From contig JACQID010000004.1 of assembly GCA_016198685.1 (NCBI GenBank), positions 117,864 through 181,863 of the forward strand: a DNA stretch of 64,000 bases. Reading direction: 5' to 3'. Position numbers and translations under genes: made by a program. This document shows, piece after piece, positions 13,788 through 29,858 of this stretch. Under the pieces are notes generated by a model, which saw only the letters and a program-made list of their open reading frames with translations, was not told where the DNA came from and ran no database searches. Position 1 is the first letter of the stretch. The number at the start of each line of letters is the position of its first letter. Source of the stretch: Candidatus Aenigmatarchaeota archaeon (GTDB taxonomy: Archaea; Aenigmatarchaeota; Aenigmatarchaeia; GW2011-AR5).

Positions 13788-14450
13788 ATGCCTGATTTTT
13801 ATCCTTTTACAGTCTTAAAAACGGACATGAAAGTCGTGCTCGGAAAGCCGGCTGCTATAAGCATAATTCTTTCAGCCGTGGAAGTGTACAAAAAAGAGAC
13901 TTACGGCATACTTTTGGGCGAGCGCAACGGCCAAACAATAAAAGTCAACCAGGCTCTCAGCTTTCAATCGGCAAACCGTGATTATGAATATGTTTCGATG
14001 GAAACAGCGAGGGAAAACAGGATAAATTACATTCTTCGCTACCTTTCCGGCTTCAAAGTAGTAGGAGATTTCCATTCCCATCCTGATTTTCCTGAGAAAC
14101 TAAGCAAGCATGATACAGAAGAACTCAGGAAAGCTGGAGAAGGCACTGTTTCGGTATTGATTCTCATAAAAAAGACCTCTGCCGGGAAGAAATGGAGGTA
14201 TGATGCCGCAGGCAAAAGGATAGCCGGCGTATTGGCCGGCCGATACTTCATAGGCATTACAGCTTCGATCTACAATTACAAGAAAAAAAAAGCCGAACGC
14301 ATACCTTTAATCTGTAGGCATCTCAAGGAAATGAACCAGAGGATCAGGCTCTATTCTAAACTGGAAAAGAAGCTGGAGAAACTTGAGAAGGAAGAAATGC
14401 GGGCAAAACGGCTTAAAAAAATGCTCGTGGCCTTGAAAATGAAGGTATAA
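13788..14450 (+). CDS. JAMM/MPN+ metalloprotease domain protein with coiled-coil C-terminal tail
   Basis: Exact JAMM motif HxHx7Sx2D in GDFHSHPDFPEKLSKHD. Upstream Glu in ETYGILLGE. C-terminus KLEKKLEKLEKEEMRAKRLKKML. Confidence 0.7.
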   Translation: MPDFYPFTVLKTDMKVVLGKPAAISIILSAVEVYKKETYGILLGERNGQTIKVNQALSFQSANRDYEYVSMETARENRINYILRYLSGFKVVGDFHSHPDFPEKLSKHDTEELRKAGEGTVSVLILIKKTSAGKKWRYDAAGKRIAGVLAGRYFIGITASIYNYKKKKAERIPLICRHLKEMNQRIRLYSKLEKKLEKLEKEEMRAKRLKKMLVALKMKV

Positions 14451-14870: not shown

Positions 14871-17117
14871 ATGGTAATGTTTTTACAAAACGGGCTTATG
14901 GGCCATATTATGTCTCTTGCCAAAGTACAGCCTCATTTACCAGCACTGCTTTCATGCGACGAAGAGGGCAGAATCATCCATACGATTGACTATTCGGACC
15001 TTTATGAAAAGCTGCAAAATATAGGTTCCTGGTTCGAGTCCATAAAATTGTCCAGCGGAGATACAGTTGCGCTTGCCATGCATAACAGGGCAGAGTTGCT
15101 GCTCGTCAGCTGGGCCGCATGGTCTCTTGGCATAATAACAGCTCCGCTTGATGTAAGAAGAGATGCCGAAGAGCAGCATCTGTATAAAATAGGACTTACC
15201 AAGCCGAAGCTTCTATTGGGAGATAAAAAATTTTCCGGTCTCATGAGGAATTTTGAAGACATTGAAAGCATTTCATCGCTTTCTGCGGCCAAGCCGGTTG
15301 CGTGGAAAAAAGGAATCGAGCATCCGGCGTTGATACTTTTTACATCCGGAACAACTTCCCATCCGAAAGGCGCAAAGCTCAGCCTCAAGAACCTCATGAC
15401 TAATGCCGACGGCATCAGAGACTGGTTCAAGATTACAGAGAAAGACAGGTTTCTTGTTTTGCTGCCGCTGCATCATATAAATTCCACGAGTTTCACGCTT
15501 GCGACGATATTAGGCGGGGCAAGCATAGCGATACCGCCTGCTTATTCGAGCTCAAAATTCTGGTCACAACTGGCAAATAGCCAAAGCACATTTACCTCTA
15601 TTGTGCCGACAATATGCTTCGACCAGCTATCACAGGAGTCTGCTTTCAAATCAGAAAATCTGCATGTTACAAGGATACAGATAGGCTCTGCCCCGGTCAT
15701 CGCGGGCGACGCAAAGAAGTTCATTGAGATGTACAAAATACCCCTTTATCAGGGATATGGGCAGACGGAAACTGCCCTGCGCGTCACAGGAGTGCCTCTT
15801 GATTTGGATAAGAAAAGTTATAGCCGTCTCGTCGATGAAAATAGCATAGGCAAGCCGATGAAATGGGCGGATGTAATAATAATGGGGAAGGACGGAAAAG
15901 CTCTGCGTGAAGGTGAAGAAGGCGAGCTTGCAGTAAAGGGAGATGCAATAATGGAGGGATATCTTGGGAATCAGAATAACAACGATGTCTTTAGAAATGG
16001 GTACTTCCTTACAGGTGATATAGGCTTCTACAATAAAATAAATGGGGAGTCATTTTTCTTCCTTAAGGGCAGATCCAAAGAGATAATAATCAAGGGCGGA
16101 GTCAATATTTCTCCGGCGTCCGTGGAAGATCGTTTGAAGCAATGCGATTCTGCTATAGACCAGGTCTATGTGATAGGCCTGCCTGACAGGCGATACGGCG
16201 AAGAAGTTGCTGCCGTCGTCTGCTGGAAGAAGGGCGAAGATGCAGTAAAGGCCGAAGCCAAACTAAGGTACAGGCTTATGAATCCGCTTCCAAACATAAG
16301 GTCATTCGAGGTTCCGCAGTATATAACGACTATAAACGCTTCGGAACTGCCTATGACATCGACAGGCAAAGTTCAGCGTTCTGTAATCAAAAAAATGATC
16401 GCTCCTGAAAAATTCCGGCATGTAAACACGATAGTTAAGAGCGAAAAATACGAATTCATGCGCCTTGCTGCTTACGATAAGCCACGAATGAAAGAGGCGC
16501 TTGAGCTTTTCAATCGCTGCTGGCAGCCGCTTAGTATTGATGCCCAGAAATTCCATGAGCATGTAAGCAATGGTTTTGTCATGGTATGCGTGCCTAAGAA
16601 AGGCGGCGCAATTGAAAGCATGATAAGCCTGCTGCGCACAGATCTTACAGACAAAGAACTTTCAAAATCAACATATGATAAACTGACAGGAAATTTGTCA
16701 ATGTCAACAAGCAAGCTTTACGGGAAGAACATAGTCTGCGTTTCCATATGCAGCTCTGCCTATGTGCCTCAAGAGCCAAAACAAGCCAAACCGCCGTCTG
16801 TTTCTTACATGGAAAAATATCTTGAAGCAGGCAAGGACCCTGTTTATGGATTCCATGCAAAAAAGAAAGGCGGCATAGAAGGTGCCAAGCTGCTCTCTTT
16901 GTTGCCGAATGCGAGACCGGATGACAAGCTTTCCTTGGGCTATTGCATGCTTCTTGAATATGCGCGAATACCTAATGCGCCTTGCATACCAGAAAGTGCA
17001 TCGCCTGCCTCGCAGCTTATAGAAGCTGTCATGGAATTTGCAAGGCAGCAGGACGTGGAGCGCGTATTTGCTTTCTCAAGGCCCGCAGGGGCATCCGAAT
17101 ATTTTAGCAGGAAATAA
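14871..17117 (+). CDS. AMP-dependent synthetase/ligase (ANL family) fused to a ~250-aa C-terminal domain of unknown function
   Basis: AMP-binding motif LFTSGTTSHPKGA, GYGQTE and a KGG...K C-terminal ANL motif fall within the first ~500 aa. Residues ~500-748 have no recognised motif. TATAAAAA lies ~20 nt upstream. Confidence 0.75.
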   Translation: MVMFLQNGLMGHIMSLAKVQPHLPALLSCDEEGRIIHTIDYSDLYEKLQNIGSWFESIKLSSGDTVALAMHNRAELLLVSWAAWSLGIITAPLDVRRDAEEQHLYKIGLTKPKLLLGDKKFSGLMRNFEDIESISSLSAAKPVAWKKGIEHPALILFTSGTTSHPKGAKLSLKNLMTNADGIRDWFKITEKDRFLVLLPLHHINSTSFTLATILGGASIAIPPAYSSSKFWSQLANSQSTFTSIVPTICFDQLSQESAFKSENLHVTRIQIGSAPVIAGDAKKFIEMYKIPLYQGYGQTETALRVTGVPLDLDKKSYSRLVDENSIGKPMKWADVIIMGKDGKALREGEEGELAVKGDAIMEGYLGNQNNNDVFRNGYFLTGDIGFYNKINGESFFFLKGRSKEIIIKGGVNISPASVEDRLKQCDSAIDQVYVIGLPDRRYGEEVAAVVCWKKGEDAVKAEAKLRYRLMNPLPNIRSFEVPQYITTINASELPMTSTGKVQRSVIKKMIAPEKFRHVNTIVKSEKYEFMRLAAYDKPRMKEALELFNRCWQPLSIDAQKFHEHVSNGFVMVCVPKKGGAIESMISLLRTDLTDKELSKSTYDKLTGNLSMSTSKLYGKNIVCVSICSSAYVPQEPKQAKPPSVSYMEKYLEAGKDPVYGFHAKKKGGIEGAKLLSLLPNARPDDKLSLGYCMLLEYARIPNAPCIPESASPASQLIEAVMEFARQQDVERVFAFSRPAGASEYFSRK

Positions 17118-17163
17118 TGATGATTTTACAGTTTGAGATTAATAAAATAGAAATGCAAAAATG

Positions 17164-17352
17164 TTAGTCGAGGTCCGTATCTATATCATCCAGAGTATTC
17201 TGAAGACTCTCAACGTTAGTGGCTATATCACCCACTGCTTCGGAAGCCTGTTCCTGCGTTTTCACGGGGTTGTCGTTGCCTATGCAGCCGCTCATGAAAA
17301 CGAGAGAACTGATCACAACGAGCAGCATGAAAACAGCTTTTACGTTCATCAT
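17164..17352 (-). CDS. small lipoprotein-like secreted protein
   Basis: MMNVKAVFMLLVVISSLVFMSGC has a signal peptide plus lipobox-like Cys. ATG overlaps the stop of the upstream large gene (ATGA). Confidence 0.45.
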   Translation of the reverse strand: MMNVKAVFMLLVVISSLVFMSGCIGNDNPVKTQEQASEAVGDIATNVESLQNTLDDIDTDLD

Positions 17353-19523
17353 ATTTCACCTTGTTCATTTATACTTGGCTCTGAAACAACGGGTTCTGAA
17401 GGCTCCCTTCGTGCAGGCGGTTGCGGGTTATTGAAGCCGGATTGAGGCTGGCCCTGGAAAGGCTGTGGCTGAGAGAAGCTTTCACCCTCAAAACCTTGGT
17501 CAGGTGCCGGGTTCCTCGGCCTGAAATTATCTCCCTGAGCTGGGTACTGGATACCCGGACCTTGATTATCTATTGGCATGTAAGGATCTCTGTAATTGTC
17601 GCCGAACTCATCGCTAAAACCGGGTTGCCTGAAGTTTCCAGGTGGAGGCCTGCCGAATTGCTGATCCTGCAGGTCAGTTCTGAATTCATCATCTCTTCTC
17701 ATCCCCTGCTGGCTTCTGTAATCTTGTGGAATTGGCTGATACTGGTCATATTGATTGTTATATTGGAACTGGCTTCTTCCTTCTATCAATGCGGTCAATC
17801 CCTGTTTCGCTTCAGGCGGAAGTCGGTTGCCAAAAGTATCCAGGCACTTTTTGGCGTTTTCGGCATTTTCAAAGCATGCCTGCTTGCAATCCTCGCCCTG
17901 GCATACTCCTTCAACTGCACCGCCTGCCTGAACGCCTTCCTGTTTCATCATCTCGTAAAGTGGCCCTTCACAGTAAGGCAAAACGTCGGTTTCAGGATCT
18001 CTTATGCCCAGGCTGTATTTCTCTATTTTGCATGTCATCGACTGGCTCTCGCTTCCTTGCGTCATGGTTGCCTGAAGTATGCACTTGTTATCTTCGAGTC
18101 CTGTAATCTCAACTGTAGGCCCGTTTCGTCCTTCAGGCAGGAATTTCACGGGGCTGCATATGCGGATTGCCTTGTCAAAGCACCTCTCATCAGTGCCGCA
18201 GTCACTGCCGCTCCCCGAAACTATATTTTGCACATCATCGTTTGAGCTAAGCATCACGTAAACTATGTCTTTTATGGCGACATCCTTGAGATATTTTATG
18301 TCATGTTTTATTTCTGTCATGTCTTCAATCGTAAGGGTGTCAAGCCTTTCTTTCATCTTGTCCTTTATGTCTTGAACGTTGCCCTTGGCAGATTGGAACA
18401 TGTCGGCAACCCTTCTGAATCTGTTCTCATCTGTTGAACCCGTTGATTTATAATAATCAGCGACATCATCTGCCTGCTTGGAAAGTTTATCAAGCTCGAC
18501 CACTAATTTTTCCAATTTGAATGCTATTGACAGTACTTCGGTTGAGTCCGGCACGTTGGAAGGTCTTTCCACGTAGACATCGTTCTCGTCACCCTGACGG
18601 ACGCATTCAGCAAAACTTACGCAGCCGTTGCGGTCTCTTTTGACTATCATCTCGCCGCCGTTCTGATGGCAAGTGCTATACGCAGCATCTTCGACATTCT
18701 GCCTGCAATAATTCTGTTCTGCGCATCTGTAGAAAATGCAGCCGCTTTGGTCAAAATCTTTTGTTATGCTCAGGCCGCGAGAGCTGCACTCATTTTCAGC
18801 CGTTACGCGGGATTGCTGAGTGCTTGGGCATATCTTATTTTGTTCTGTCTGTATGCATGATGCAACGCCGCATCCGTTTTCCTGTCTTACAACGCCCTTG
18901 AGACCTGAAGACTCGCAGCTTCTGAGTGTCGTATCTATCTGTTCGCGGGAGGGGCATTGATCATATTTCTTAAATAGCTGGCCCTGCAGTTGCCCGCCTT
19001 GGTCGAATTGGCAATAGAACATATCGCATCCGTTAGGCGATTTGGAAAATTGGGGCATTCCGCCGCCGTTCCTGCATGCATCAATGCTTTCTTTGGGTGC
19101 AGGCTGGCAGGAGACCGCTCCTTCGCATATGACTCTTACAAAACCGGTCTCGTCACGTTCTTCTCTGCATCCGGGAGGCGGACCTCTGTGCTCAGGAACA
19201 GTTTGGGGAGGCATGCCTTCAGTATCACCACCTTCTTGAGTTCCGTCAGGAGTATCTGCCTCTTGTCTGCTATTTGCATCTTCCGTATCTCCGGCAGGCA
19301 TTTCTTCAGAGGAAGGTTCGGAAATATCATTCGTTGATTCTTCATTTGCAGGCTCCGAAGGTGGTGTTGATTCTTGAGGCGTTGATTCTTCATTTGCAGG
19401 CTCCGAAGGTGGTGTTGATTCTGCTGGCGGCTCTGCAGTTTCGGTCTGGGCAGACGAAACAGAAAGAATTAATATCGCAGCGGCAAATAGAATGAATATG
19501 CTTTTTGTGGAGTTATTGGCCAT
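17349..19523 (-). CDS. large secreted cysteine-repeat protein with P/E/S/T repeats, a coiled-coil segment and a Q/N/P/Y-rich C-terminal low-complexity tail
   Basis: Start moved to ATG 19523 (MANNSTKSIFILFAAAILILSVSSAQT signal peptide). Four ~35-aa repeats of type C..NGC...[FY].C..Q. The final ~140 aa are rich in Q, N, P, G, F, D and Y. No C-terminal TM. Confidence 0.7.
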   Translation of the reverse strand: MANNSTKSIFILFAAAILILSVSSAQTETAEPPAESTPPSEPANEESTPQESTPPSEPANEESTNDISEPSSEEMPAGDTEDANSRQEADTPDGTQEGGDTEGMPPQTVPEHRGPPPGCREERDETGFVRVICEGAVSCQPAPKESIDACRNGGGMPQFSKSPNGCDMFYCQFDQGGQLQGQLFKKYDQCPSREQIDTTLRSCESSGLKGVVRQENGCGVASCIQTEQNKICPSTQQSRVTAENECSSRGLSITKDFDQSGCIFYRCAEQNYCRQNVEDAAYSTCHQNGGEMIVKRDRNGCVSFAECVRQGDENDVYVERPSNVPDSTEVLSIAFKLEKLVVELDKLSKQADDVADYYKSTGSTDENRFRRVADMFQSAKGNVQDIKDKMKERLDTLTIEDMTEIKHDIKYLKDVAIKDIVYVMLSSNDDVQNIVSGSGSDCGTDERCFDKAIRICSPVKFLPEGRNGPTVEITGLEDNKCILQATMTQGSESQSMTCKIEKYSLGIRDPETDVLPYCEGPLYEMMKQEGVQAGGAVEGVCQGEDCKQACFENAENAKKCLDTFGNRLPPEAKQGLTALIEGRSQFQYNNQYDQYQPIPQDYRSQQGMRRDDEFRTDLQDQQFGRPPPGNFRQPGFSDEFGDNYRDPYMPIDNQGPGIQYPAQGDNFRPRNPAPDQGFEGESFSQPQPFQGQPQSGFNNPQPPARREPSEPVVSEPSINEQGEI
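19332..19427. repeat. 2 x 48-bp tandem repeat inside the secreted protein gene
   Basis: CGTTGATTCTTCATTTGCAGGCTCCGAAGGTGGTGTTGATTCTTGAGG repeated from 19332 and 19380. It encodes the PPSEPANEESTPQEST repeat. Confidence 0.7.
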
Positions 19524-19569
19524 ACAGAGTTTTGGATTTGAGTGATATATATAGTTATCGTGATTTGGC

Positions 19570-20049
19570 ATGAAAACTGAATTGATTGCGCTTGCAGGGA
19601 TTGGATTATTTTTACTTATTGTTTTGGTTCGCCCGACCGCTCCTGCTTCTTTGCCGGAGATATCAGTCGAGGGTTTCGTGCCCGTGAAAATAGAAATCAA
19701 CGGAAGCGATATGATATTGTCAGGCGAATGCAGAAGCATCTTAATGGCAGTAAGCGAACATCAGGCGCTTTCCATCGCAAGTGCATTGAACAACGAATAT
19801 TATATCAGGCCGCTCACGCACGATCTTATGAGAGACATATTTGAGAATTATAAGATAGAACTGAATTCGGCAAGAATAGATTCTTTTACAGACGGTGTAT
19901 ATACTGCCAAGATATACGTGACCAAGGATTCAAAAATTCTTGAAATGGATGCAAGGCCAACCGATGCGGCAGGAATTGCATTGAGGATGGGAGTGCCGCT
20001 CTATTTCAATGAAGATCTATTGAAGATCAACGGTGAAAAAATATGCTGA
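19570..20049 (+). CDS. membrane-anchored bifunctional-nuclease (BFN/DUF151) domain protein
   Basis: N-terminal TM helix. HQALSIASAL, RPLTHDLM, ARIDSFTDGVYTAKI and EMDARPTDAAGIALRMGVPLY match the DUF151 pattern. Confidence 0.55.
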   Translation: MKTELIALAGIGLFLLIVLVRPTAPASLPEISVEGFVPVKIEINGSDMILSGECRSILMAVSEHQALSIASALNNEYYIRPLTHDLMRDIFENYKIELNSARIDSFTDGVYTAKIYVTKDSKILEMDARPTDAAGIALRMGVPLYFNEDLLKINGEKIC

Positions 20050-20792
20050 ACAATCGTCAGGGGATGAACAACAATATGGTTGCAGCAGGCTTCATATTCA
20101 TATTCATTGCTGGGCTCGCTGGCGGATATTATTATCACAATCTGCAGAATGAGAGCGTAGGGGTCATAGTTGACGAGCAGGATAGCCGGACAGTAGAAAT
20201 GATCATAGCTGCGGTTGATTCCGAAGGAAAGGGCGTCACGGGCAAGCTCTTCACAACAGTGCGTCCGGCTGCGTCACCGGGCTCTGGACAGGTTCTTGTC
20301 AGCGTAAACAACGTTCTCTCGCAGCTTGACACACAGGCTTCAGCAAGGACTGCCGTTCATGCCGCAGGCAGATATACTGACAAGAAGATTAGCGACTACG
20401 ATGTCATCTATGTCATGGAGGTCAATGCACGTTCGATAGAAGGGCCGTCTGCAGGTGCAGCCATGGCCGTTTCGGCGTTAGCTGCATTGAATAACCGGCT
20501 CATAGACCCGCACGTTTCAATAACCGGCGCCATAAGAGAGGATGGCACGATAGCGCCGGTGGGGGGAGTTGAAGAAAAATTCGCAGCGGCAAAAAATGCC
20601 GGCATACGCGTATTCCTCGTGGCCGGCGGTCAATCCGTTGAGAGCACTGCCGAAAGATCCAAAACATGTACTACATCCAACGGTTATGAATATTGTAAGG
20701 TATCTTATAGCGTCAAAAAAACCAGCATAAGTGATGACTTAAAAGAAGTCTCGGATATTGGCGAGGCTTTGGAATATTTTGTCAAGAACTAA
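20043..20792 (+). CDS. membrane-anchored Lon C-terminal-like (S16) serine peptidase domain protein
   Basis: N-terminal TM helix. GPSAGAAMAVSALAAL (catalytic Ser) and GGVEEKFAAAKNAG (Lys). ITGAIREDGTIAPVGG. Overlaps the previous gene by 7 nt. Confidence 0.6.
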   Translation: MLNNRQGMNNNMVAAGFIFIFIAGLAGGYYYHNLQNESVGVIVDEQDSRTVEMIIAAVDSEGKGVTGKLFTTVRPAASPGSGQVLVSVNNVLSQLDTQASARTAVHAAGRYTDKKISDYDVIYVMEVNARSIEGPSAGAAMAVSALAALNNRLIDPHVSITGAIREDGTIAPVGGVEEKFAAAKNAGIRVFLVAGGQSVESTAERSKTCTTSNGYEYCKVSYSVKKTSISDDLKEVSDIGEALEYFVKN

Positions 20793-23438: not shown

Positions 23439-25013
23439 TTATTTGGCGTTTTCAGCGAACCTCATGGATCTTTTTTTCCTGTTGTAGGTGACAGCAAACC
23501 TATGCGTCTCGTCTCTTATTGATCTTACGAGAAGCATCATCGAAGAGTTCTTGGGAAAGCGCATGGGTATCTCGTTCTCCGGCGTGAAGATCTCTTCATC
23601 TTTTTTAGCAAGTGATATTATCGGTATTTTAAGACCGAGATCTTTCAATGCGCCAAGCGCGGAATTCAGCTGCCCCGGCCCGCCGTCTATGATTATAAGA
23701 TCCGGCATAGAGTCATTCTGGTCGCGGAGTCTGCGGTATCTCCTGTGCACCACTTCTTTCATGGCTGCAAAATCGTCACTTTTTCCGCTAAAGGTCTTTA
23801 TTTCAAACTTCCTATAACCCTGCTTATCCTTTGCGCCTTCGGTGAATCTCACCATTGAAGCGACAATGTAGTCATATCCAAGATTAGAGATATCAAAGCA
23901 TTCAATGATTCTTGGCAGTGAAGGCAAATTCAGCTTCTCTTGGAGTTCATTCAACGCCTTATTGCCTATTTTCAGCGCGGCATTCTTTTCTGCAATGGCT
24001 ACAAGTGCCATGTTTTCTTTTGTTTCCGGCGGAAGAAGTCTTATGCTTCTTCCTGACAATTTTTCAAAATATGATTGAAGCGTCTCATCGTCCCAGAATT
24101 TCCTGTTGACTATTATCTCATCGGGGATTTCATTACTAAGATAGTAGGTTTTTATGAAATTCTCAAAGACCTCATTTTCAGATTCTTCAAAATGAGGCGT
24201 TATCATGTACTCATTTTTTCCCGAAATAACGCCGCGCTTTATATAAAATACCTCGAAGATGAAGCGTTCCCCGTCTTGAATACCGGCAATGACGTCCTGA
24301 TCGACCTTTTTGGCGATATTTATTTTCCGTTTTCCTGATACCCTGTCTATTATCTCTATCTGGCGTCTTTTTTCCAGGGCAAGCTCATACTTCATGGATT
24401 GGGAAGATGCTTTAAGTTCTTCATTGAGCTTGTTTCTCAAAGGCGATGTATCCCCGGAAAGAAATTCTATGGCATGACGAACCTGGTCTAGATATTGTTC
24501 ATGGCTGACCAGTTTGATGCATGGAGCTGTGCAGATTCCGATATAATAGTTAAGGCATGCTTTTCTTGGCAGTTTTTTGCAGGTGCGAAGCCGTAATGAC
24601 TTGACCAGAAGCTCTATTGTATCATCTCTTAGCCTTGAATCAATATACGGGCCGAAATAAGTTCCGTCTCCCTTGGCGTTCCTTGATATCATAACGCGCG
24701 GAAATTTTTCGTTGGTTATCTTGATATAAGCGTAGGTCTTTGAATCCTTGAGGGATATGTTATATTTCGGCCAGTGCTTTTTTATAAGCTGGTTCTCAAG
24801 AAGCAGAGCTTCAGTCTCGTTATTGACGACTATGAATTCTATGTCGTTTATTTTATGCACAAGTGCCTGAGTTTTTGCATTTTTCTTCCCTGAAAAATAA
24901 GATAAGACCCGCTTTTTAAGTATCTTGGCTTTGCCTATGTAGATTATTTTCCCAGACGAGTCCTTGAACAGGTAAACTCCGGGGTCATCCGGAACGTTCG
25001 GTATCATAATCAT
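23439..25013 (-). CDS. uvrC: excinuclease ABC subunit C (no C-terminal HhH region)
   Basis: GIY-YIG N-terminus GVYLFKDSSGKIIYIGKAKILKKRV ... ENQLIKKHWPKYNI. 524 aa. Stop is 3 nt before uvrA start. Confidence 0.85.
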   Translation of the reverse strand: MIMIPNVPDDPGVYLFKDSSGKIIYIGKAKILKKRVLSYFSGKKNAKTQALVHKINDIEFIVVNNETEALLLENQLIKKHWPKYNISLKDSKTYAYIKITNEKFPRVMISRNAKGDGTYFGPYIDSRLRDDTIELLVKSLRLRTCKKLPRKACLNYYIGICTAPCIKLVSHEQYLDQVRHAIEFLSGDTSPLRNKLNEELKASSQSMKYELALEKRRQIEIIDRVSGKRKINIAKKVDQDVIAGIQDGERFIFEVFYIKRGVISGKNEYMITPHFEESENEVFENFIKTYYLSNEIPDEIIVNRKFWDDETLQSYFEKLSGRSIRLLPPETKENMALVAIAEKNAALKIGNKALNELQEKLNLPSLPRIIECFDISNLGYDYIVASMVRFTEGAKDKQGYRKFEIKTFSGKSDDFAAMKEVVHRRYRRLRDQNDSMPDLIIIDGGPGQLNSALGALKDLGLKIPIISLAKKDEEIFTPENEIPMRFPKNSSMMLLVRSIRDETHRFAVTYNRKKRSMRFAENAK

Positions 25014-25016
25014 GAT

Positions 25017-27866
25017 TTAGAGCATTCGCTTTAAAAATTGGCCAGTATAAGACGCAGGTTCCATGGCAACTTCTTCCGGCGTTCCCATGGCTATTATTCT
25101 TCCTCCATCTCTTCCGCCTTCCGGGCCCATGTCTATCAGGTAATCGCAGGATTTTACGATATCAAGATTATGCTCGATGACAAGCACGCTGCTTCCTTTT
25201 TCAACCAGCCTATTGAGTACCATTATGAGCTTTCTTACATCCTCAAAATGCAATCCGGTGGTGGGTTCATCAAGCATATAGATCGTATCCCCTGTTTTTT
25301 GCTTTGATAGTTCTCTTGTCAGTTTTATTCTCTGCGCTTCGCCTCCTGAAAGCGTATTGGAGCTTTGCCCTAGCTTGATGTATCCCAGACCAACGTCGTA
25401 TAATGTCTTTATTTTTCTCGACATACCCGTGTGATTTTCAAAGAATTTCGTGGCGTCTTCAACGCTCATGTCAAGAACATCAGATATGTTTTTTTCTTTG
25501 TAGGTGATTGCAAGAGTCTCCTTGTTGTACCGTTTGCCTTTGCAGTCTTCACATTGCACATAAACATCGGGTAAAAAGTTCATTTCTATTTTTATTACGC
25601 CGTCCCCTTTGCAGCTCTCGCAGCGCCCGCCTTTGACATTGAAGGAGAATCTCCCTTCTTTGTATCCTTTGGCGCGGGCGTCTTTGGTGGAAGAAAAAAT
25701 CTTTCGGATTTCATCGAATATTTTGGTATAAGTAGCTGGATTGGATCTCGGTGTTTTTCCTATAGGATCTTGGTCTATGACTATCACATTTTTGACCGAT
25801 TTCGGGATTTCTATGCCGTTGTTTTTCCCTATTTTCTCGGCGATCATGCCGGCATGCTTCTTCAGTAAGGGAACAAGCGTCTGGTTTATCAGGGTCGATT
25901 TTCCGGATCCTGATACACCCGTTATTCCGCAAAGCACGCCTGTCGGCAACGAAACGTATATGTTTTTCAGATTATTCTCGGAAGCGCCTTTTACAACTAT
26001 GAAGTCTTTTGGTTCTCTTCTGTGCTCTGGTATCTCTATTTTTGTATGTCCTGAAAGGTAGCGGCCGGTTATGCTGTTCTTGTCTTTGGCTATATCATCA
26101 GGTGTTCCCTGTGAGGCAACATGACCTCCATGCACGCCTGCGCCGGGTCCCATGTCAATTATATAATCCGCGGCCTTTATCGTGTCGTAATCGTGTTCGA
26201 CAACTATGAGCGTATTTCCTATGTCCCTGAGCCTCTGAAGGGTTGCAATAAGCTTGTTATTGTCCCTTTGATGCAGCCCTATGGAGGGCTCATCAAGAAT
26301 GTAAAGAACGCCCATGAGGTTCGATCCTATCTGCGTTGCAAGACGTATTCGCTGCGCTTCGCCGCCCGATAGGGTCTTTGAGCTTCTCGAAAGCGACAGG
26401 TAGCCAAGGCCTACGTTTGTAAGAAAGCTGATTCTGTCATTGATTTCCTTGAGTATCTGCTTTGATATTATCTTGTCTTTTTCCGAAAGGCTCTCTGCAA
26501 GATGGATGAAAAATTTGGCGCAAGCATCCAGGTCCATCTCCGTAATGTCAATTATGGATTTTCCTGCTATGCTGACCGAAAGCACGGTTTCCTTGAGCCT
26601 CTTTCCTTCGCATACGCGGCATAGCTTCCCTATCATGAATCTTTCAAGGTCTTCCTTTCTTTCGTCGGATTCTGTCTGTTTGTACAGTCTTAGCGTTTGG
26701 GGTATTATTCCTTCCCAGCCGTTTTCCATGTTCATTGAAGCGCCGTTGCTCCATCTGCCGTCTATTCTTTCAGTCGTTCCATTAAGAAGTACATCGAGTT
26801 GTTTTTTTGAAAATGCAGATATGGGGGTGAAAATGTCGAATCCGAATTTTTTCCCGACAACAGCAATCTGCTGGCATCTCCATTGCAAATCCATTCTCCC
26901 ATAGACCGCAATGGTGCCATCAATGATAGATTTGCTTTTATCCGGAATCAAGAGATCCTGCGATATTTCCAGCGTTTCTCCGAGGCCCAAGCACCCCGCG
27001 CACGCGCCGAAAGGGGAATTAAATGAGAACATTCTGGGTTCTAGCTGCTGGAACAAAACTTCAGGATGCTTGGGGCACGCGCCGAAAGTTGAATAGATTG
27101 TCTCACCTGCGCCTCGTTGTATCTCTTTTGTTTTCTTTTGTATTTTAGCCGGGTCAAGAATTATTACGGTTCCCTTGCCGGCATGCACCGCCTGCTCAAC
27201 GTCTTCCGATATTCTGGAGCGATTATCGTCGCTGGCCTCCAGCCTGTCCACAACCGCTTCTATCCAGTGCTTTTCATAGCGAGCTAATTTCATATTATCT
27301 TTTATCTCATCAAGCCTGCATATTTCTCCGTCAATGCGCACGCGGCTGAATCCGTCTGATAACATTCCTTCGAAAATTTTCTCATGGGCTCCTTTAACTC
27401 CGCTAATCAGCGGAGCAAGAATTATAATCTCCTTTTTTTCAGACATGATCAGGTTTACTATGTTTTCCACTGACTGCGGCCTGATTTGGGATTTGCACTT
27501 AGGGCAGTGTATTGTCCCTATGCGTGCAAATAGAAGCCTGAGATAATCATATATCTCAGTTACCGTGCCTACCGTTGATCTTGGGTTTTTTGAGGTCGTT
27601 TTTTGCTCTATGGATATTGCAGGCGAAAGCCCATCTATCAAATCTATGTCCGGTTTATTCATCAATCCCAAGAACTGGCGGGCATATGCAGAAAGTGATT
27701 CGACATACCTGCGCTGGCCTTCGGCATATATTGTGTCAAACGCCAAAGTAGACTTCCCCGAGCCTGACATGCCCGTTATTACGACAAGCTTGTTCCTTGG
27801 TATTTCCACGTTTATGTTCTTCAGGTTGTGTTCCCTTGCTCCTCTCACTACTATTTTATCCAGCAT
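25017..27866 (-). CDS. uvrA: excinuclease ABC subunit A
   Basis: Two ABC ATPase modules ([28 protein letters not shown] x2). Zn-finger cysteines. 949 aa. Confidence 0.95.
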
Positions 27867-27870
27867 AATA

Positions 27871-29793
27871 TCAATTCTTTATTGAACTCTCAAGTTCTTG
27901 CATCGCATCGCGCAGTTCTATGGCCCGCTCAAAATTAAGATTTTCCGCTGCAGTCCTCATCTCGGCTTCCAGCTCGATGATTTTTCTTTCAATATCAATT
28001 CTTGCCATGTGCTTGAATCCTTTTATTTTGCCGGGCTTGACTATGTTTTTGATGATCGTTTCAGGGGTTATGCCATGTTTTTTGTTATATGCCTGCTGCA
28101 TGCGCCTTCGTTCATCTGTTATCTTTACCGCCCGCCTTATCGAATCAGTCATCTGGTCGGCAAAAAGTATTACACGACCGTTTATGTTTCTTGCGGCCCT
28201 TCCTATGGTTTGGATCAGGCTCCTTTCGTTTCTTAAAAATCCTTCTTTGTCGGCATCCAGTATGCATACGAGCGAGACTTCTGGTATATCCAGTCCTTCT
28301 CGCAAAAGATTTATTCCGACAAGAATGTCAAACTCACCCGACCTAAGCTGCCGTATTATCTCTATCCTATCAAGGCTTTCGATATCGGAGTGCATGTACC
28401 GAACCTTCAGCCCTTCTTTTGCAAGATAATCTGTCAGATCCTCAGCCATCCTTTTTGTCAGTGTCGTGATAAGAATCCTTTCACCTTTTCCAATGGCTTT
28501 TCGCATTTCATTCACCATGTAAGGTATATGGTCTTTTATCGGCCTCACGGATACCTCCGGATCAATCAAGCCTGTCGGACGTATTATCAGGTTCACAACT
28601 TGCCCTGACATCTGCAGTTCATATTCGCCGGGAGTTGCTGAAACAAAGATTGTATGGCGGAAGTACTGCTCAAACTCCGGGAATTTAAGCGGGCGGTTGT
28701 CAAATGCGCATGGCAGTCTGAATCCAAAATCGACAAGATTCTTTTTGCGCGAATAATCCCCTTTATACATGGCTCTAGACTGGGGTAGTGTCTGATGGCT
28801 TTCATCTATTATCAGAAGAAAATCCTTCGGGAAATAATCAAGGAGAACAAATGGTGGTTGGCCCTTTTTGCGATTATCGAAATGCCTCGAATAATTTTCT
28901 ATTCCGCTGCAATAACCGACTTCTTTTATCATTTCTATGTCGTATTTGACGCGTTTTTCAAGCCGTTGTGCTTCAATGCCAGACAATTCCGGCAGTCTTT
29001 CTGCAAGCTCTTTTTTAATCTCTTCTATGGCGGCTTCATGCTTTTGTTCCGGCGTTGCAAACTGTTTTGCAGGAAAAATTGTTGCACTTTCGAGGACATT
29101 GATCACGCTTCCCGTTATGCCGTCCATCTCGGATATCTTATCAACAGCGTTTCCGAACAGCTCTATTCGTGCTATGTTATTCCCGTACGCCGGGATGATG
29201 TCTATTACGTCGCCCCTTGCGCGGAATTTTCCCGGCTCAAGGTACTGATCGCTTCTTTCATACTGCATCTCTATCAATTTTCTTATCAAGTCATTTCTCG
29301 TAATCTTGTCGTTCTTTACCAGCGTAAGCGAGAGGCTCTTGAAGTCATCAGGATTGCCAAGGCCGTATATGCAGGATATTGAGGCGACAATTATAGTATC
29401 CGGCCTTGATATGAGGGAGGTCACGGCCTTCAGCCTCATTTTTTCTATCTGTTCGTTGATTGTCGCATCTTTCTCTATATACAAGTCGGTTGTGGGCACA
29501 TAACTCTCCGGCTGATAATAATCATAATATGAAATGAAATACTCCACGCAGTTTTTGGGAAACATTTCCTTAAGCTCTGCATATAGCTGAGCTGCGAGTG
29601 TTTTGTTGTGTGCAAGTACAAGGGTAGGCTTTTGTATCCTGCCTATTAAATTAGCCATGACAAATGTCTTCCCGCTTCCCGTTATGCCGAGCAATGTCTG
29701 CATGGGGTATTTTCCGTAGCCTTCGTGAAGCTTTTCTATGGCCTCTGGCTGCCCTCCTGCCGGCTTGAACGGCGAGTGCAGTTCGAATTTCAT
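27871..29793 (-). CDS. uvrB: excinuclease ABC subunit B
   Basis: Start moved to ATG 29793 ([22 protein letters not shown]). Helicase motifs GITGSGKT and DESH. Confidence 0.95.
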
Positions 29794-29858
29794 GCGATCG
29801 CAATAATATAAAATATAATTAAGCTTAAACGTCGATTCGGGACAATAATGCAAGGAAC

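What the first reader, a model, noticed from the sequence alone, without database searches (positions are those of the whole stretch)
17349..19523. Large secreted protein with four Cys-triad repeats, P/E/S/T linker repeats, coiled coil and a prion-like Q/N/P/Y-rich C-terminal tail
After a signal peptide (start corrected to 19523) comes a P/E/S/T-rich linker encoded by an exact 2 x 48-bp DNA tandem repeat. Then come four ~35-aa modules each of type C-x-NGC-x-[FY]-x-C-x-Q: ESIDACRNGGGMPQFSKSPNGCDMFYCQFDQ, LRSCESSGLKGVVRQENGCGVASCIQTEQ, ENECSSRGLSITKDFDQSGCIFYRCAEQ and YSTCHQNGGEMIVKRDRNGCVSFAECVRQ. A long coiled-coil segment and further Cys-rich regions follow. The final ~140 aa are strongly biased toward Q, N, P, G, F, D and Y, for example QFQYNNQYDQYQPIPQDYRSQQ and NFRQPGFSDEFGDNYRDPYMPIDNQGPGIQYPAQ. 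There is no membrane anchor. A lipobox-like small protein is translationally coupled downstream. I do not recognise the repeat module. The Q/N-rich tail is unusual for an archaeal surface protein.
Basis: seen in the sequence. Interest (0 to 1): 0.6.

Follow-up and report, generated by a model that had tools for sequence, protein, structure and literature searches.

The report
Two-part cysteine-rich archaeal surface complex
A secreted, disulfide-rich 77-kDa protein of an uncultured DPANN archaeon and the tiny membrane-anchored helical protein encoded directly behind it form a gene pair kept throughout the phylum Aenigmatarchaeota; it is most likely a cell-surface complex of an undescribed family, and its tail is not prion-like.

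Summary
The gene is real and intact: 19523..17349 on the minus strand, 724 aa, identical to an NCBI 'hypothetical protein' of a Ca. Aenigmarchaeota MAG. The layout is signal peptide, acidic P/E/S/T linker, a conserved ~430-aa core, a 4-Cys helical hairpin, then a disordered Q/P/G/aromatic tail. The core holds a hairpin, four helix+hairpin modules with FOUR invariant Cys each, a three-helix bundle (not a long coiled coil) and a 6-Cys alpha/beta domain.

The core is one family unit: 211 clusters at E<=1e-30 and 44 GTDB species genomes, each from a different assembly. N- and C-terminal flanks are hypervariable.

The main new result is the downstream 61-62-aa gene. It overlaps the stop codon and is present in all 41 related loci with enough downstream DNA. 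It encodes an N-terminal lipobox or TM anchor, a ~6-aa linker and a 32-aa heptad amphipathic helix. No family member has its own anchor.

Best reading: a two-subunit surface complex with a small membrane tether and a large displayed subunit. Its role is probably contact or envelope organisation. The 'prion-like' label is not supported: 16% Pro, 23% charged residues.

The parts
19545..19553 (-). TATA-like box (TATATATAT), centred about 26 nt upstream of the ATG. This implies a leaderless transcript. It lies in the 46-nt gap to the divergent gene at 19570.
   Evidence: Read from the sequence. Inference from the usual archaeal TATA-to-TSS distance.
17349..19523 (-). Large subunit gene: 724 aa plus stop. 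The mature protein is 699 aa, 77 kDa, pI 4.45.
19449..19523 (-). Sec-type signal peptide (aa 1-25, ...SVSSA|QT).
   Evidence: Only hydrophobic segment (KD19 2.09). Conserved at the N-terminus of homologues. The cleavage site is inferred.
19188..19448 (-). Acidic, Cys-free P/E/T/S linker (aa 26-112; E21 P17 T13 S11 %, net charge -23), predicted disordered.
   Evidence: Hypervariable in the family.
19332..19427 (-). 2 x 48-nt tandem duplication (45/48 identical) encoding ESTPPSEPANEEST twice. It is absent from the closest relatives.
19113..19187 (-). Start of the conserved core: PPGCRxExDxxGFVRVxCE beta-hairpin (C119, C133).
18996..19112 (-). Cys module 1 (aa 138-176; C139, C150, C166, C171): helix plus beta-hairpin.
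   Evidence: Weak sub-threshold DUF333 likeness of this module in homologues.
18843..18959 (-). Cys module 2 (aa 189-227; C190, C203, C218, C223).
18714..18833 (-). Cys module 3 (aa 231-270; C232, C246, C262, C267).
18588..18710 (-). Cys module 4 (aa 272-312; C273, C285, C301, C307).
18243..18551 (-). Antiparallel three-helix bundle (aa 325-427). It is the most sequence-conserved part of the family and the proposed docking site for the small subunit's helix.
   Evidence: The docking role is inferred.
17928..18218 (-). 6-Cys alpha/beta domain (aa 436-532; C442, 448, 456, 481, 498, 518). No known fold relative.
17778..17906 (-). 4-Cys helical hairpin (aa 540-582; C541, 546, 550, 560). It lies C-terminal to the A3 core profile (aa 114-532).
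17352..17768 (-). Disordered Q/P/G/D/F/R/N/Y-rich tail (aa 586-724) with 18 aromatic residues spaced 2-12 apart. It is about 75 % conserved among the closest relatives.
17356..17360 (-). GGTGA Shine-Dalgarno-like site, 3 and 6 nt upstream of the two candidate ATGs of the small gene.
17164..17352 (-). Small subunit gene (62 aa; 61 aa from the second ATG, as annotated by NCBI HY364_01290). Its ATG overlaps the TGA of the large gene.
   Evidence: Conserved downstream in 41 of 41 related loci with enough DNA.
17284..17352 (-). Small subunit N-terminal hydrophobic anchor ending in the lipobox-like FMSGC.
   Evidence: 42 of 63 family sequences have a lipobox-like motif; 21 have a plain TM helix..
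17167..17268 (-). Small subunit amphipathic heptad helix (about 32 aa; family consensus IKSxEEAsxAVxxvSxDVxxVxSTLxDIDxxLG).
17141..17161 (-). T-tracts directly after the small gene's stop codon. Likely the transcript end, before the convergent gene ending at 17117.
   Evidence: Read. The termination role is inferred.

Best explanation
The locus encodes a two-subunit cell-surface complex specific to Aenigmatarchaeota.

LARGE SUBUNIT. It is exported by Sec. It folds into one rigid, disulfide-stabilised core of about 430 aa: a hairpin, four 4-Cys helix/hairpin modules, a three-helix bundle and a 6-Cys alpha/beta domain. It has no anchor of its own.

SMALL SUBUNIT. It is made from the same, probably leaderless, transcript by coupled translation. 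It is fixed in the membrane by an N-terminal lipid or TM anchor. Only about 6 residues further on, it presents a 32-residue heptad amphipathic helix.

PROPOSED ASSEMBLY. This helix holds the large subunit at the membrane. The most likely mode is packing onto the equally long, highly conserved three-helix bundle to give a four-helix bundle. The hypervariable N-terminal region then projects outward, and so does the sticky aromatic/Q/P/G tail. In this protein the N-terminal region is a mucin-like acidic linker; in most relatives it carries Cys-rich, Kazal-like or PEGA modules.

PROPOSED ROLE. Contact with other cells (a host) or other envelope layers. No catalysis is expected.

SHOWN: export signal, domain anatomy, family conservation, obligatory gene pairing, the anchor and amphipathic helix of the partner, absence of an anchor in the large subunit.
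INFERRED: physical binding, the bundle as the binding site, orientation, the contact function.
For: GENE PAIRING
- The small gene follows the large one in the window and in all 41 related loci with enough downstream DNA. It usually overlaps or lies within a few nt.
- It is the only conserved neighbour.
- Its relatives are all 48-99-aa proteins. Every named one is from Aenigmarchaeota or unclassified 'archaeon' MAGs.

SMALL SUBUNIT
- 42 of 63 sequences have a lipobox-like motif and 21 a plain TM helix, so membrane tethering is the conserved property.
- The median linker from the lipobox Cys to the helix is 6 aa.
- Hydrophobic positions are spaced 4-3-4-3-4-3-4. Mean helical hydrophobic moment is 0.386, z 3.4 against shuffles; 35 of 37 sequences have z above 2.

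LARGE SUBUNIT
- Signal peptide only; no other hydrophobic segment.
- Only 1 of 141 family members has a TM-like C-terminus.
- The core is confidently folded as one unit: pLDDT above 85 from aa ~190 to 530, pTM 0.60 although a third of the chain is disordered.
- Bundle helices are 27-35 aa long, matching the partner helix. The bundle is the best-conserved stretch.
- The core is always matched whole: 211 clusters at E<=1e-30.
- 44 loci, each from a different assembly.
- The N-terminal flank varies from 0 to 1206 aa and the C-terminal flank from 1 to 374 aa.
- No enzyme family matches.
Against: - No direct evidence that the two proteins bind each other.
- The small helix could instead self-associate (Lpp-like), or serve another partner.
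- The extra conserved hydrophobic positions on bundle helix 1 may simply pack against the protein's own Cys domains.
- No expression, proteomic or imaging data exist for this lineage.
- Disulfide-rich extracellular proteins need an oxidising folding system, which I did not look for.
- The contact or adhesion role rests only on architecture and flank variability.
Confidence: 0.55

Rival explanations
1. It is the S-layer lattice protein of Aenigmatarchaeota, with the small protein acting as a minimal SlaB-like membrane stalk.
For: - Phylum-wide, one locus per assembly, secreted, acidic (pI 4.45).
- A two-gene operon with an anchored coiled-coil partner.
- Variable exposed parts.
- Two-protein S-layers are known in Sulfolobus (PMC12175726).
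Against: - A structure-prediction survey assigns Aenigmatarchaeota an MSTP-like beta-sandwich S-layer protein, orthologous to those of other DPANN and class I methanogens (bioRxiv 10.1101/2024.05.28.596244). This protein has no beta-sandwich and no matching Pfam hit.
- 28 to about 100 Cys per protein is atypical for S-layer proteins (own knowledge).
- A third of the chain is disordered.
Confidence: 0.12
2. It is an internal envelope scaffold. The core sits on the membrane in the pseudo-periplasm, and its long disordered arms tie the membrane to the overlying S-layer. It is not an outward-facing contact device.
For: - The helix of the small subunit starts about 6 aa from the membrane, so the core would lie close to it.
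- There are two long flexible arms.
- The tail is about 75 % conserved among close relatives, as expected if it binds a conserved self component.
- Archaeal S-layers can be anchored through co-expressed accessory proteins.
Against: - The extreme variability and modular shuffling of the N-terminal region (Kazal, PEGA, RET_CRD-like, 0-1206 aa) fits an exposed, diversifying surface better than a housekeeping tether.
- No S-layer-binding domain was recognised.
Confidence: 0.2
3. It is a released soluble effector or protease-inhibitor-like protein. The small gene is an unrelated lipoprotein, or an immunity or chaperone factor.
For: - The modules are small disulfide knots.
- Some homologues carry Kazal-type inhibitor domains in their N-terminal region.
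- The modules resemble DUF333 weakly. DUF333 proteins are sometimes annotated as 'putative hemolysin' (own knowledge).
- The protein has no anchor of its own.
Against: - Kazal domains occur in only 4 of 57 members, outside the conserved core, and not in this protein.
- The DUF333 likeness is below threshold.
- Strict pairing with an anchored amphipathic helix (41/41 loci) and one locus per assembly argue for a cell-bound structural role.
Confidence: 0.08
4. The C-terminal tail is a prion-like or amyloid-forming domain that drives self-templated aggregation at the surface.
For: - Q+N is 23 %, with aromatic residues every 2-12 positions.
- The region is predicted disordered.
Against: - 16 % Pro and 23 % charged residues.
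- The longest stretch free of D/E/K/R/P is 7 aa.
- The PAPA-type score is at most -0.15, against a cut-off of about 0.05 (scale recalled from memory).
- Across the family the tails are G/D/E/P-rich, with median Q+N only 9 %.
Confidence: 0.03
5. It is a frameshifted remnant or a spurious ORF.
For: None found.
Against: - Uninterrupted ORF with full-length alignment to 57 or more homologues. All core Cys are kept and the Cys count is even (28).
- The AF2 model is confident.
Confidence: 0.01

Closest known systems
SlaA/SlaB two-protein S-layer of Sulfolobales
   Same: Adjacent genes. A large secreted subunit without an anchor, plus a partner that supplies a membrane helix and a coiled-coil stalk. 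The exposed protein is free to diversify while the anchor stays conserved (PMC12175726).
   Different: SlaB is a large glycoprotein of some 400-plus residues with beta-rich domains (own knowledge); the partner here is 48-99 aa. SlaA is not Cys-rich (own knowledge). There is no sequence or fold similarity. No lattice formation is shown here.
Braun's lipoprotein Lpp / OprI alanine-zipper lipoproteins
   Same: A tiny N-terminally lipid-anchored protein that consists essentially of one heptad-repeat helix and acts as a tether between envelope layers.
   Different: Lpp is bacterial, trimeric and covalently linked to peptidoglycan (own knowledge). The NCBIfam match is only 15.8 bits against a cut-off of 43. 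A third of the archaeal proteins use a TM helix instead of a lipobox.
DUF333 (Pfam PF03891), a small Cys-containing domain of bacterial lipoproteins
   Same: The C-x3-GG ... G-C signature. Module 1 of two homologues and 6 of 91 modules give weak hits.
   Different: All hits are below the gathering score (19-22 bits against 25; best single-module E 0.004). The window protein gives none. The four-Cys pattern and the tandem arrangement are particular to this family. DUF333 itself has no known function (one search found no relevant literature).
MSTP-like (Methanosarcinales S-layer tile protein) S-layer proteins predicted for DPANN, including Aenigmatarchaeota
   Same: Secreted surface proteins of the same phylum.
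   Different: The fold is a beta-sandwich. This protein has helix/hairpin knots, a helical bundle and a small alpha/beta domain. It probably coexists with that S-layer rather than being it.
Thr/Pro-rich mucin-like linkers of archaeal surface glycoproteins and aromatic 'sticker-spacer' low-complexity regions (FG-nucleoporins, HMW glutenin)
   Same: The composition of the N-terminal P/E/S/T linker. Relatives have T-rich runs directly after the signal peptide. The F/Y-Q-P-G tail has regularly spaced aromatics.
   Different: The resemblance is compositional only. No glycosylation or phase behaviour was tested. The mature protein has no N-x-S/T sequon at all.

Membership tests
DUF333 (PF03891) | Match to the Pfam HMM at or above the gathering score (25 bits) | tested here: not met
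   No hit for the window protein even at E<=1. Two of 57 homologues score 19.4 and 22.1 bits. Six of 91 isolated modules hit, best E 0.004.
Kazal-type inhibitor domain (PF00050/PF07648) | Match to the Pfam HMM; six-Cys Kazal pattern | tested here: not met
   Absent from the window protein. Present only in the variable N-terminal region of 4 of 57 relatives.
Archaeal S-layer protein (MSTP/DUF1608-type or Ig-like type) | Tandem beta-sandwich lattice domains; match to S-layer families | tested here: not met
   No Pfam or NCBIfam S-layer match. The AF2 model has no beta-sandwich. No structural hit.
Archaeal S-layer protein (any type) | Forms a 2-D lattice and is among the most abundant cell proteins | not testable with these tools
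   Needs proteomics, cryo-ET or symmetric multimer prediction.
SlaA/SlaB-like two-component surface system (functional analogy) | Adjacent co-transcribed genes: an anchorless secreted subunit plus a membrane-anchored coiled-coil subunit | tested here: met
SlaA/SlaB-like two-component surface system (functional analogy) | Physical complex between the two subunits | not testable with these tools
No multimer predictor was available.
SlaA/SlaB (homology) | Sequence or fold similarity to SlaA or SlaB | tested here: not met
Lpp/OprI alanine-zipper lipoprotein (NF040598) | Match at or above the NCBIfam cut-off (43 bits) | tested here: not met
   15.8 bits, E 0.015.
Lipoprotein (lipobox) | [LVI][ASTVI][GAS]C at the end of the signal peptide's hydrophobic region | tested here: inconclusive
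   The window protein has FMSGC, with a non-canonical M at -3. 42 of 63 family members match a relaxed lipobox pattern and 21 have no Cys. Actual lipidation cannot be tested here.
Prion-like (Q/N-rich) domain | High Q/N content with few charged residues and prolines; positive prion-propensity score | tested here: not met
   Q+N 23 %, Pro 16 %, charged 23 %. PAPA-type score at most -0.15 against a cut-off of about 0.05; longest D/E/K/R/P-free run 7 aa (scale from memory, so approximate).
Long coiled-coil protein | Extended parallel coiled coil over about 100 residues or more | tested here: not met

The most novel reading that the evidence does not exclude
The pair is the conserved host-contact (or membrane-to-S-layer connecting) organelle of Aenigmatarchaeota. 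A lipid-anchored heptad helix zips into the three-helix bundle of a disulfide-knotted subunit built from folds with no solved relative. That subunit's hypervariable head determines which partner cell or surface is recognised. The complex would be a lineage-defining surface machine unrelated to known archaeal adhesins, pili or S-layers.
Probability: 0.3. Interest if true: 0.75.

Novelty: new variant of a known kind. Interest (0 to 1): 0.55.

Why it matters
Aenigmatarchaeota are uncultured DPANN archaea whose hosts and mode of cell contact are unknown (own knowledge; nothing relevant).

- A surface complex found once per assembly across the phylum, with a conserved base and a hypervariable exposed part, is an obvious candidate for the structure that touches the partner cell or holds the envelope together.
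- It gives a concrete target for metaproteomics, for antibody- or tag-based capture of cells, and for interpreting cryo-ET densities.
- It adds two apparently new small disulfide-stabilised folds and a minimal 'lipobox + one helix' anchor protein to the repertoire of archaeal envelope parts.
- It raises the question of how an anaerobic, genome-reduced archaeon oxidises 14 to about 50 extracellular disulfides per molecule.

Tried and rejected
- FUSED-CHAIN AF2. I built 28 paired rows of large core + GS linker + small soluble part (A4) to test docking of the helix on the bundle.
- MODULE PROFILE SEARCH. The first attempt failed because the query was 39 aa. The second (A7) found only 26 word-sharing candidates and no hit. 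This reflects the word index and is not evidence of absence.
- PROFILE SEARCHES AGAINST PDB SEQUENCES. The whole family, the module and the small protein gave nothing significant. The small protein's weak top hits are designed coiled coils.
- HHALIGN, small protein against core. No relationship, so the small helix is not a detached copy of a bundle helix.
- WIDER SYNTENY. Only the pair is conserved. PCMT (13 loci) and TatD (10 loci) are occasional neighbours.
- TRF did not report the 48-nt duplication. The repeat finder did.
- REJECTED READINGS. Pseudogene, class III (pilin) signal on the small protein (no such motif), enzyme, prion domain.
- NOT ATTEMPTED. Codon-usage comparison with EF-2 and DnaK; it would be too noisy in a 64-kb window.
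Full report
WHAT IS THERE

The minus-strand ORF ending at 17349 is intact. From the ATG at 19523 it encodes 724 aa. This sequence is 100 % identical to the NCBI entry 'MAG: hypothetical protein HY364_01295 [Candidatus Aenigmarchaeota archaeon]'.

The longer 796-aa version would overlap the divergent gene that starts at 19570. All homologues start with the same kind of signal peptide. A TATATATAT element at 19545-19553 is centred about 26 nt upstream of the ATG, the distance expected for a leaderless archaeal mRNA (inference).

The only membrane-type hydrophobic segment is aa 7-27 (Kyte-Doolittle 19-mer 2.09; next best 0.89). The mature protein is 699 aa, 77 kDa and pI 4.45. It has 28 Cys, an even number.

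The window itself is ordinary chromosome. It carries UvrABC, DnaK, EF-2, the RNA polymerase large subunits and pyruvate phosphate dikinase.

ANATOMY

With a 57-sequence alignment, AlphaFold2 gives a confident model for the core: pLDDT above 85 from aa ~190 to 530, and pTM 0.60 although a third of the chain is disordered. After the signal peptide the order is as follows.

- aa 26-112: an acidic, Cys-free linker (E21 P17 T13 S11 %, net charge -23), predicted disordered.
- C119-C133: a beta-hairpin.
- aa 138-312: four modules, each a helix followed by a beta-hairpin.
- aa 325-427: a compact antiparallel three-helix bundle (H327-361, H365-392, H399-425).
- aa 436-532: a 6-Cys alpha/beta domain.
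- aa 540-582: a 4-Cys helical hairpin.
- aa 586-724: a disordered tail.

The four modules are real repeats. Ninety-one module instances from the family align with four invariant Cys and a nearly invariant Gly.

The DNA tandem repeat at 19332-19427 is 2 x 48 nt with 45/48 identity, not exact. It encodes ESTPPSEPANEEST twice. It is missing from the closest relatives (75-76 % identical proteins), whose linkers differ in sequence. It is therefore a recent duplication in a fast-evolving spacer.

THE TAIL

Residues 586-724 are Q16 P16 G9 D9 F8 R8 N7 %. That gives Q+N 23 %, charged 23 % and aromatic 13 %.

Three measures argue against a prion-like domain. The longest stretch without D/E/K/R/P is 7 residues. 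A PAPA-type propensity scan never exceeds -0.15, against a published cut-off of about 0.05 (the scale was recalled from memory, so the figure is approximate). Pro and charged residues are abundant.

The tail is better described as an aromatic 'sticker' and polar 'spacer' low-complexity region, with 18 F/Y spaced 2-12 apart. It is about as conserved as the folded core among the three closest relatives. This suggests that its sequence matters.

Across the family the C-terminal extensions are also low-complexity but differ in composition (median G 12, D+E 16, P 9, Q+N 9 %). In 48 of 141 members they end in a C.GC..N..CD..EC..C.DC knot that this protein lacks.

IS IT A KNOWN FAMILY? NO.

- Pfam and NCBIfam give nothing for the protein.
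- Profiles of the family, of the module and of the small partner find nothing significant among PDB sequences.
- Foldseek against the PDB gives nothing below E 0.1.

The one lead is a sub-threshold likeness of the module to DUF333. Module 1 of two homologues scores 19-22 bits against a cut-off of 25, and 6 of 91 isolated modules hit with best E 0.004. This is a resemblance, not membership, and DUF333 itself has no known function.

Kazal, RET_CRD-like and PEGA hits in some relatives lie in their variable flanks, not in the core, and are absent here.

THE FAMILY

The core (aa ~113-535) is about 430 aa long in every homologue.

A profile of it (A3) searched against 1.84 billion cluster representatives finds 499 proteins at E<=1e-3 and 211 at E<=1e-30. 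Nearly always the whole profile is matched as one block.

A scan of GTDB species genomes returned 44 loci, each from a different assembly. Most are labelled Ca. Aenigmatarchaeota or simply 'archaeon'. A few divergent ones carry other submitter labels: Woesearchaeota, Iainarchaeum, Methanosarcinales.

The flanks are hypervariable. The N-terminal extension runs from 0 to 1206 aa (median 237) and usually carries about 20 extra Cys. Only 19 of 141 members have a Cys-poor linker like this one. Only 1 of 141 has a TM-like C-terminus.

THE PARTNER GENE: THE MAIN NEW FINDING

The 62-aa ORF at 17164-17352 starts with ATG overlapping the TGA of the large gene (ATGA). A second ATG follows one codon later, and a GGTGA Shine-Dalgarno-like site lies 3 and 6 nt upstream of the two. 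T-tracts follow its stop codon. NCBI annotates it as HY364_01290.

A homologous small gene follows the large gene in two distant homologues that I looked up. It also follows in all 41 related loci that retain enough downstream DNA, mostly with gaps of -8 to +63 nt. Clustering all ORFs of the 44 loci plus the window shows that this is the only conserved neighbour.

The small proteins are 48-99 aa long. They have three parts.

- An N-terminal hydrophobic segment. It ends in a lipobox-like [GAS]C in 42 of 63 sequences and is a plain TM helix in the other 21.
- A linker with a median length of 6 aa.
- A conserved block of about 32 aa, IKSxEEAsxAVxxvSxDVxxVxSTLxDIDxxLG. Its hydrophobic positions are spaced 4-3-4-3-4-3-4. 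Its helical hydrophobic moment is 3.4 SD above shuffles, and 35 of 37 sequences have z above 2.

The block has no known family. It is not a copy of a bundle helix.

HOW IT MOST LIKELY WORKS

The shown facts are these.

- The large subunit is exported and has no anchor.
- The pair is obligatory, co-oriented and translationally coupled.
- The partner's only conserved properties are membrane tethering and one amphipathic heptad helix that starts right at the membrane surface.

The simplest model follows from them. The small protein is the membrane tether of the large one.

I propose (inference) that its helix packs against the three-helix bundle. Three observations point that way. The bundle helices have the same length, 27-35 aa. 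The bundle is the best-conserved part of the family. Helix 1 carries more conserved hydrophobic positions than a simple a/d core needs. This last point could equally reflect packing against the protein's own Cys domains.

The conserved base would then sit near the membrane. The mucin-like or Cys-modular N-terminal region and the sticky tail would reach outward.

A conserved base with a shuffled, hypervariable distal part is the pattern of surface structures that meet other cells, viruses or envelope layers. Nothing suggests catalysis.

S-LAYER?

The arrangement works like SlaA/SlaB (PMC12175726). However, a recent structure-prediction survey assigns Aenigmatarchaeota an MSTP-like beta-sandwich S-layer protein, orthologous to those of other DPANN (bioRxiv 10.1101/2024.05.28.596244). 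The present protein has no beta-sandwich, and it is Cys-rich, which is unusual for S-layer proteins (own knowledge).

I therefore rank 'S-layer lattice' low (0.12). I keep 'membrane-to-S-layer scaffold' (0.2) as the main rival to an outward contact or adhesion role.

VERDICT

The 'prion-like' and 'coiled-coil' labels are wrong.

The locus is one member of an undescribed, phylum-wide two-gene surface module with apparently new small disulfide folds. The function is inferred, not shown. The decisive test is a multimer prediction or pull-down of the two subunits, and it could not be run here.

Noticed in passing
window 19524-19569, with genes 19570-20049 (+) and 20043-20792 (+): Only 46 nt separate the large gene from a divergent pair. 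The pair is a bifunctional-nuclease-domain protein (BFN_dom, E 2.8e-24) and a membrane-anchored Lon-protease C-terminal (S16) domain protein, overlapping by 7 nt. The palindromic TATATATAT in the gap could serve both directions. The same two genes sit next to the pair only in the closest relatives (7 loci each).
   Followed up: partly
window 14871-17117 (+): A convergent 748-aa gene carries an AMP-binding signature (LILFTSGTTSHPKGAKLS) and a C-terminal extension of about 200 aa of unknown nature. It ends 46 nt from the small gene's stop codon.
   Followed up: no
window 23439-29853 (-): A complete bacterial-type UvrC-UvrA-UvrB operon in a DPANN archaeon (strong Pfam matches).
   Followed up: partly
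window 17421-18245 (+): A 274-aa antisense ORF lies inside the large gene. Equivalent antisense ORFs cluster across 37 related loci, but only as shadows of the conserved coding strand. I see no sign of a real gene.
   Followed up: partly
family members P0007-P0056 (C-termini); not in the window: 48 of 141 relatives end in a conserved six-Cys knot, C.GC..N..CD..EC..C.DC. It is often preceded by CPDGICDDFEQxNPxACPQDCG repeats that Pfam calls RET_CRD. The clade containing the window protein has lost both.
   Followed up: partly
loci L005-L048, downstream of the gene pair: A protein-L-isoaspartate O-methyltransferase (PCMT) gene lies near the pair in 13 of 44 loci and a TatD-like gene in 10. The association is loose and neither is next to the pair in the window.
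   Followed up: no
window 17352-19448 (mature large subunit): The 699-aa mature protein has no N-x-S/T sequon. The only two are in the signal peptide's n-region. This is a mild depletion for an archaeal surface protein and could mean it is not N-glycosylated.
   Followed up: no
window 13788-14450 (+): A JAB/MPN (Prok-JAB) domain protein with the HSHPD metalloprotease motif and a Lys-rich helical tail.
   Followed up: no
loci L040, L043, L044, L045: The most divergent family members (30-35 % identity) come from MAGs labelled Woesearchaeota, Methanosarcinales or Iainarchaeum by their submitters, and they still carry the small partner gene. Either the labels are imprecise or the pair extends beyond Aenigmatarchaeota.
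   Followed up: no
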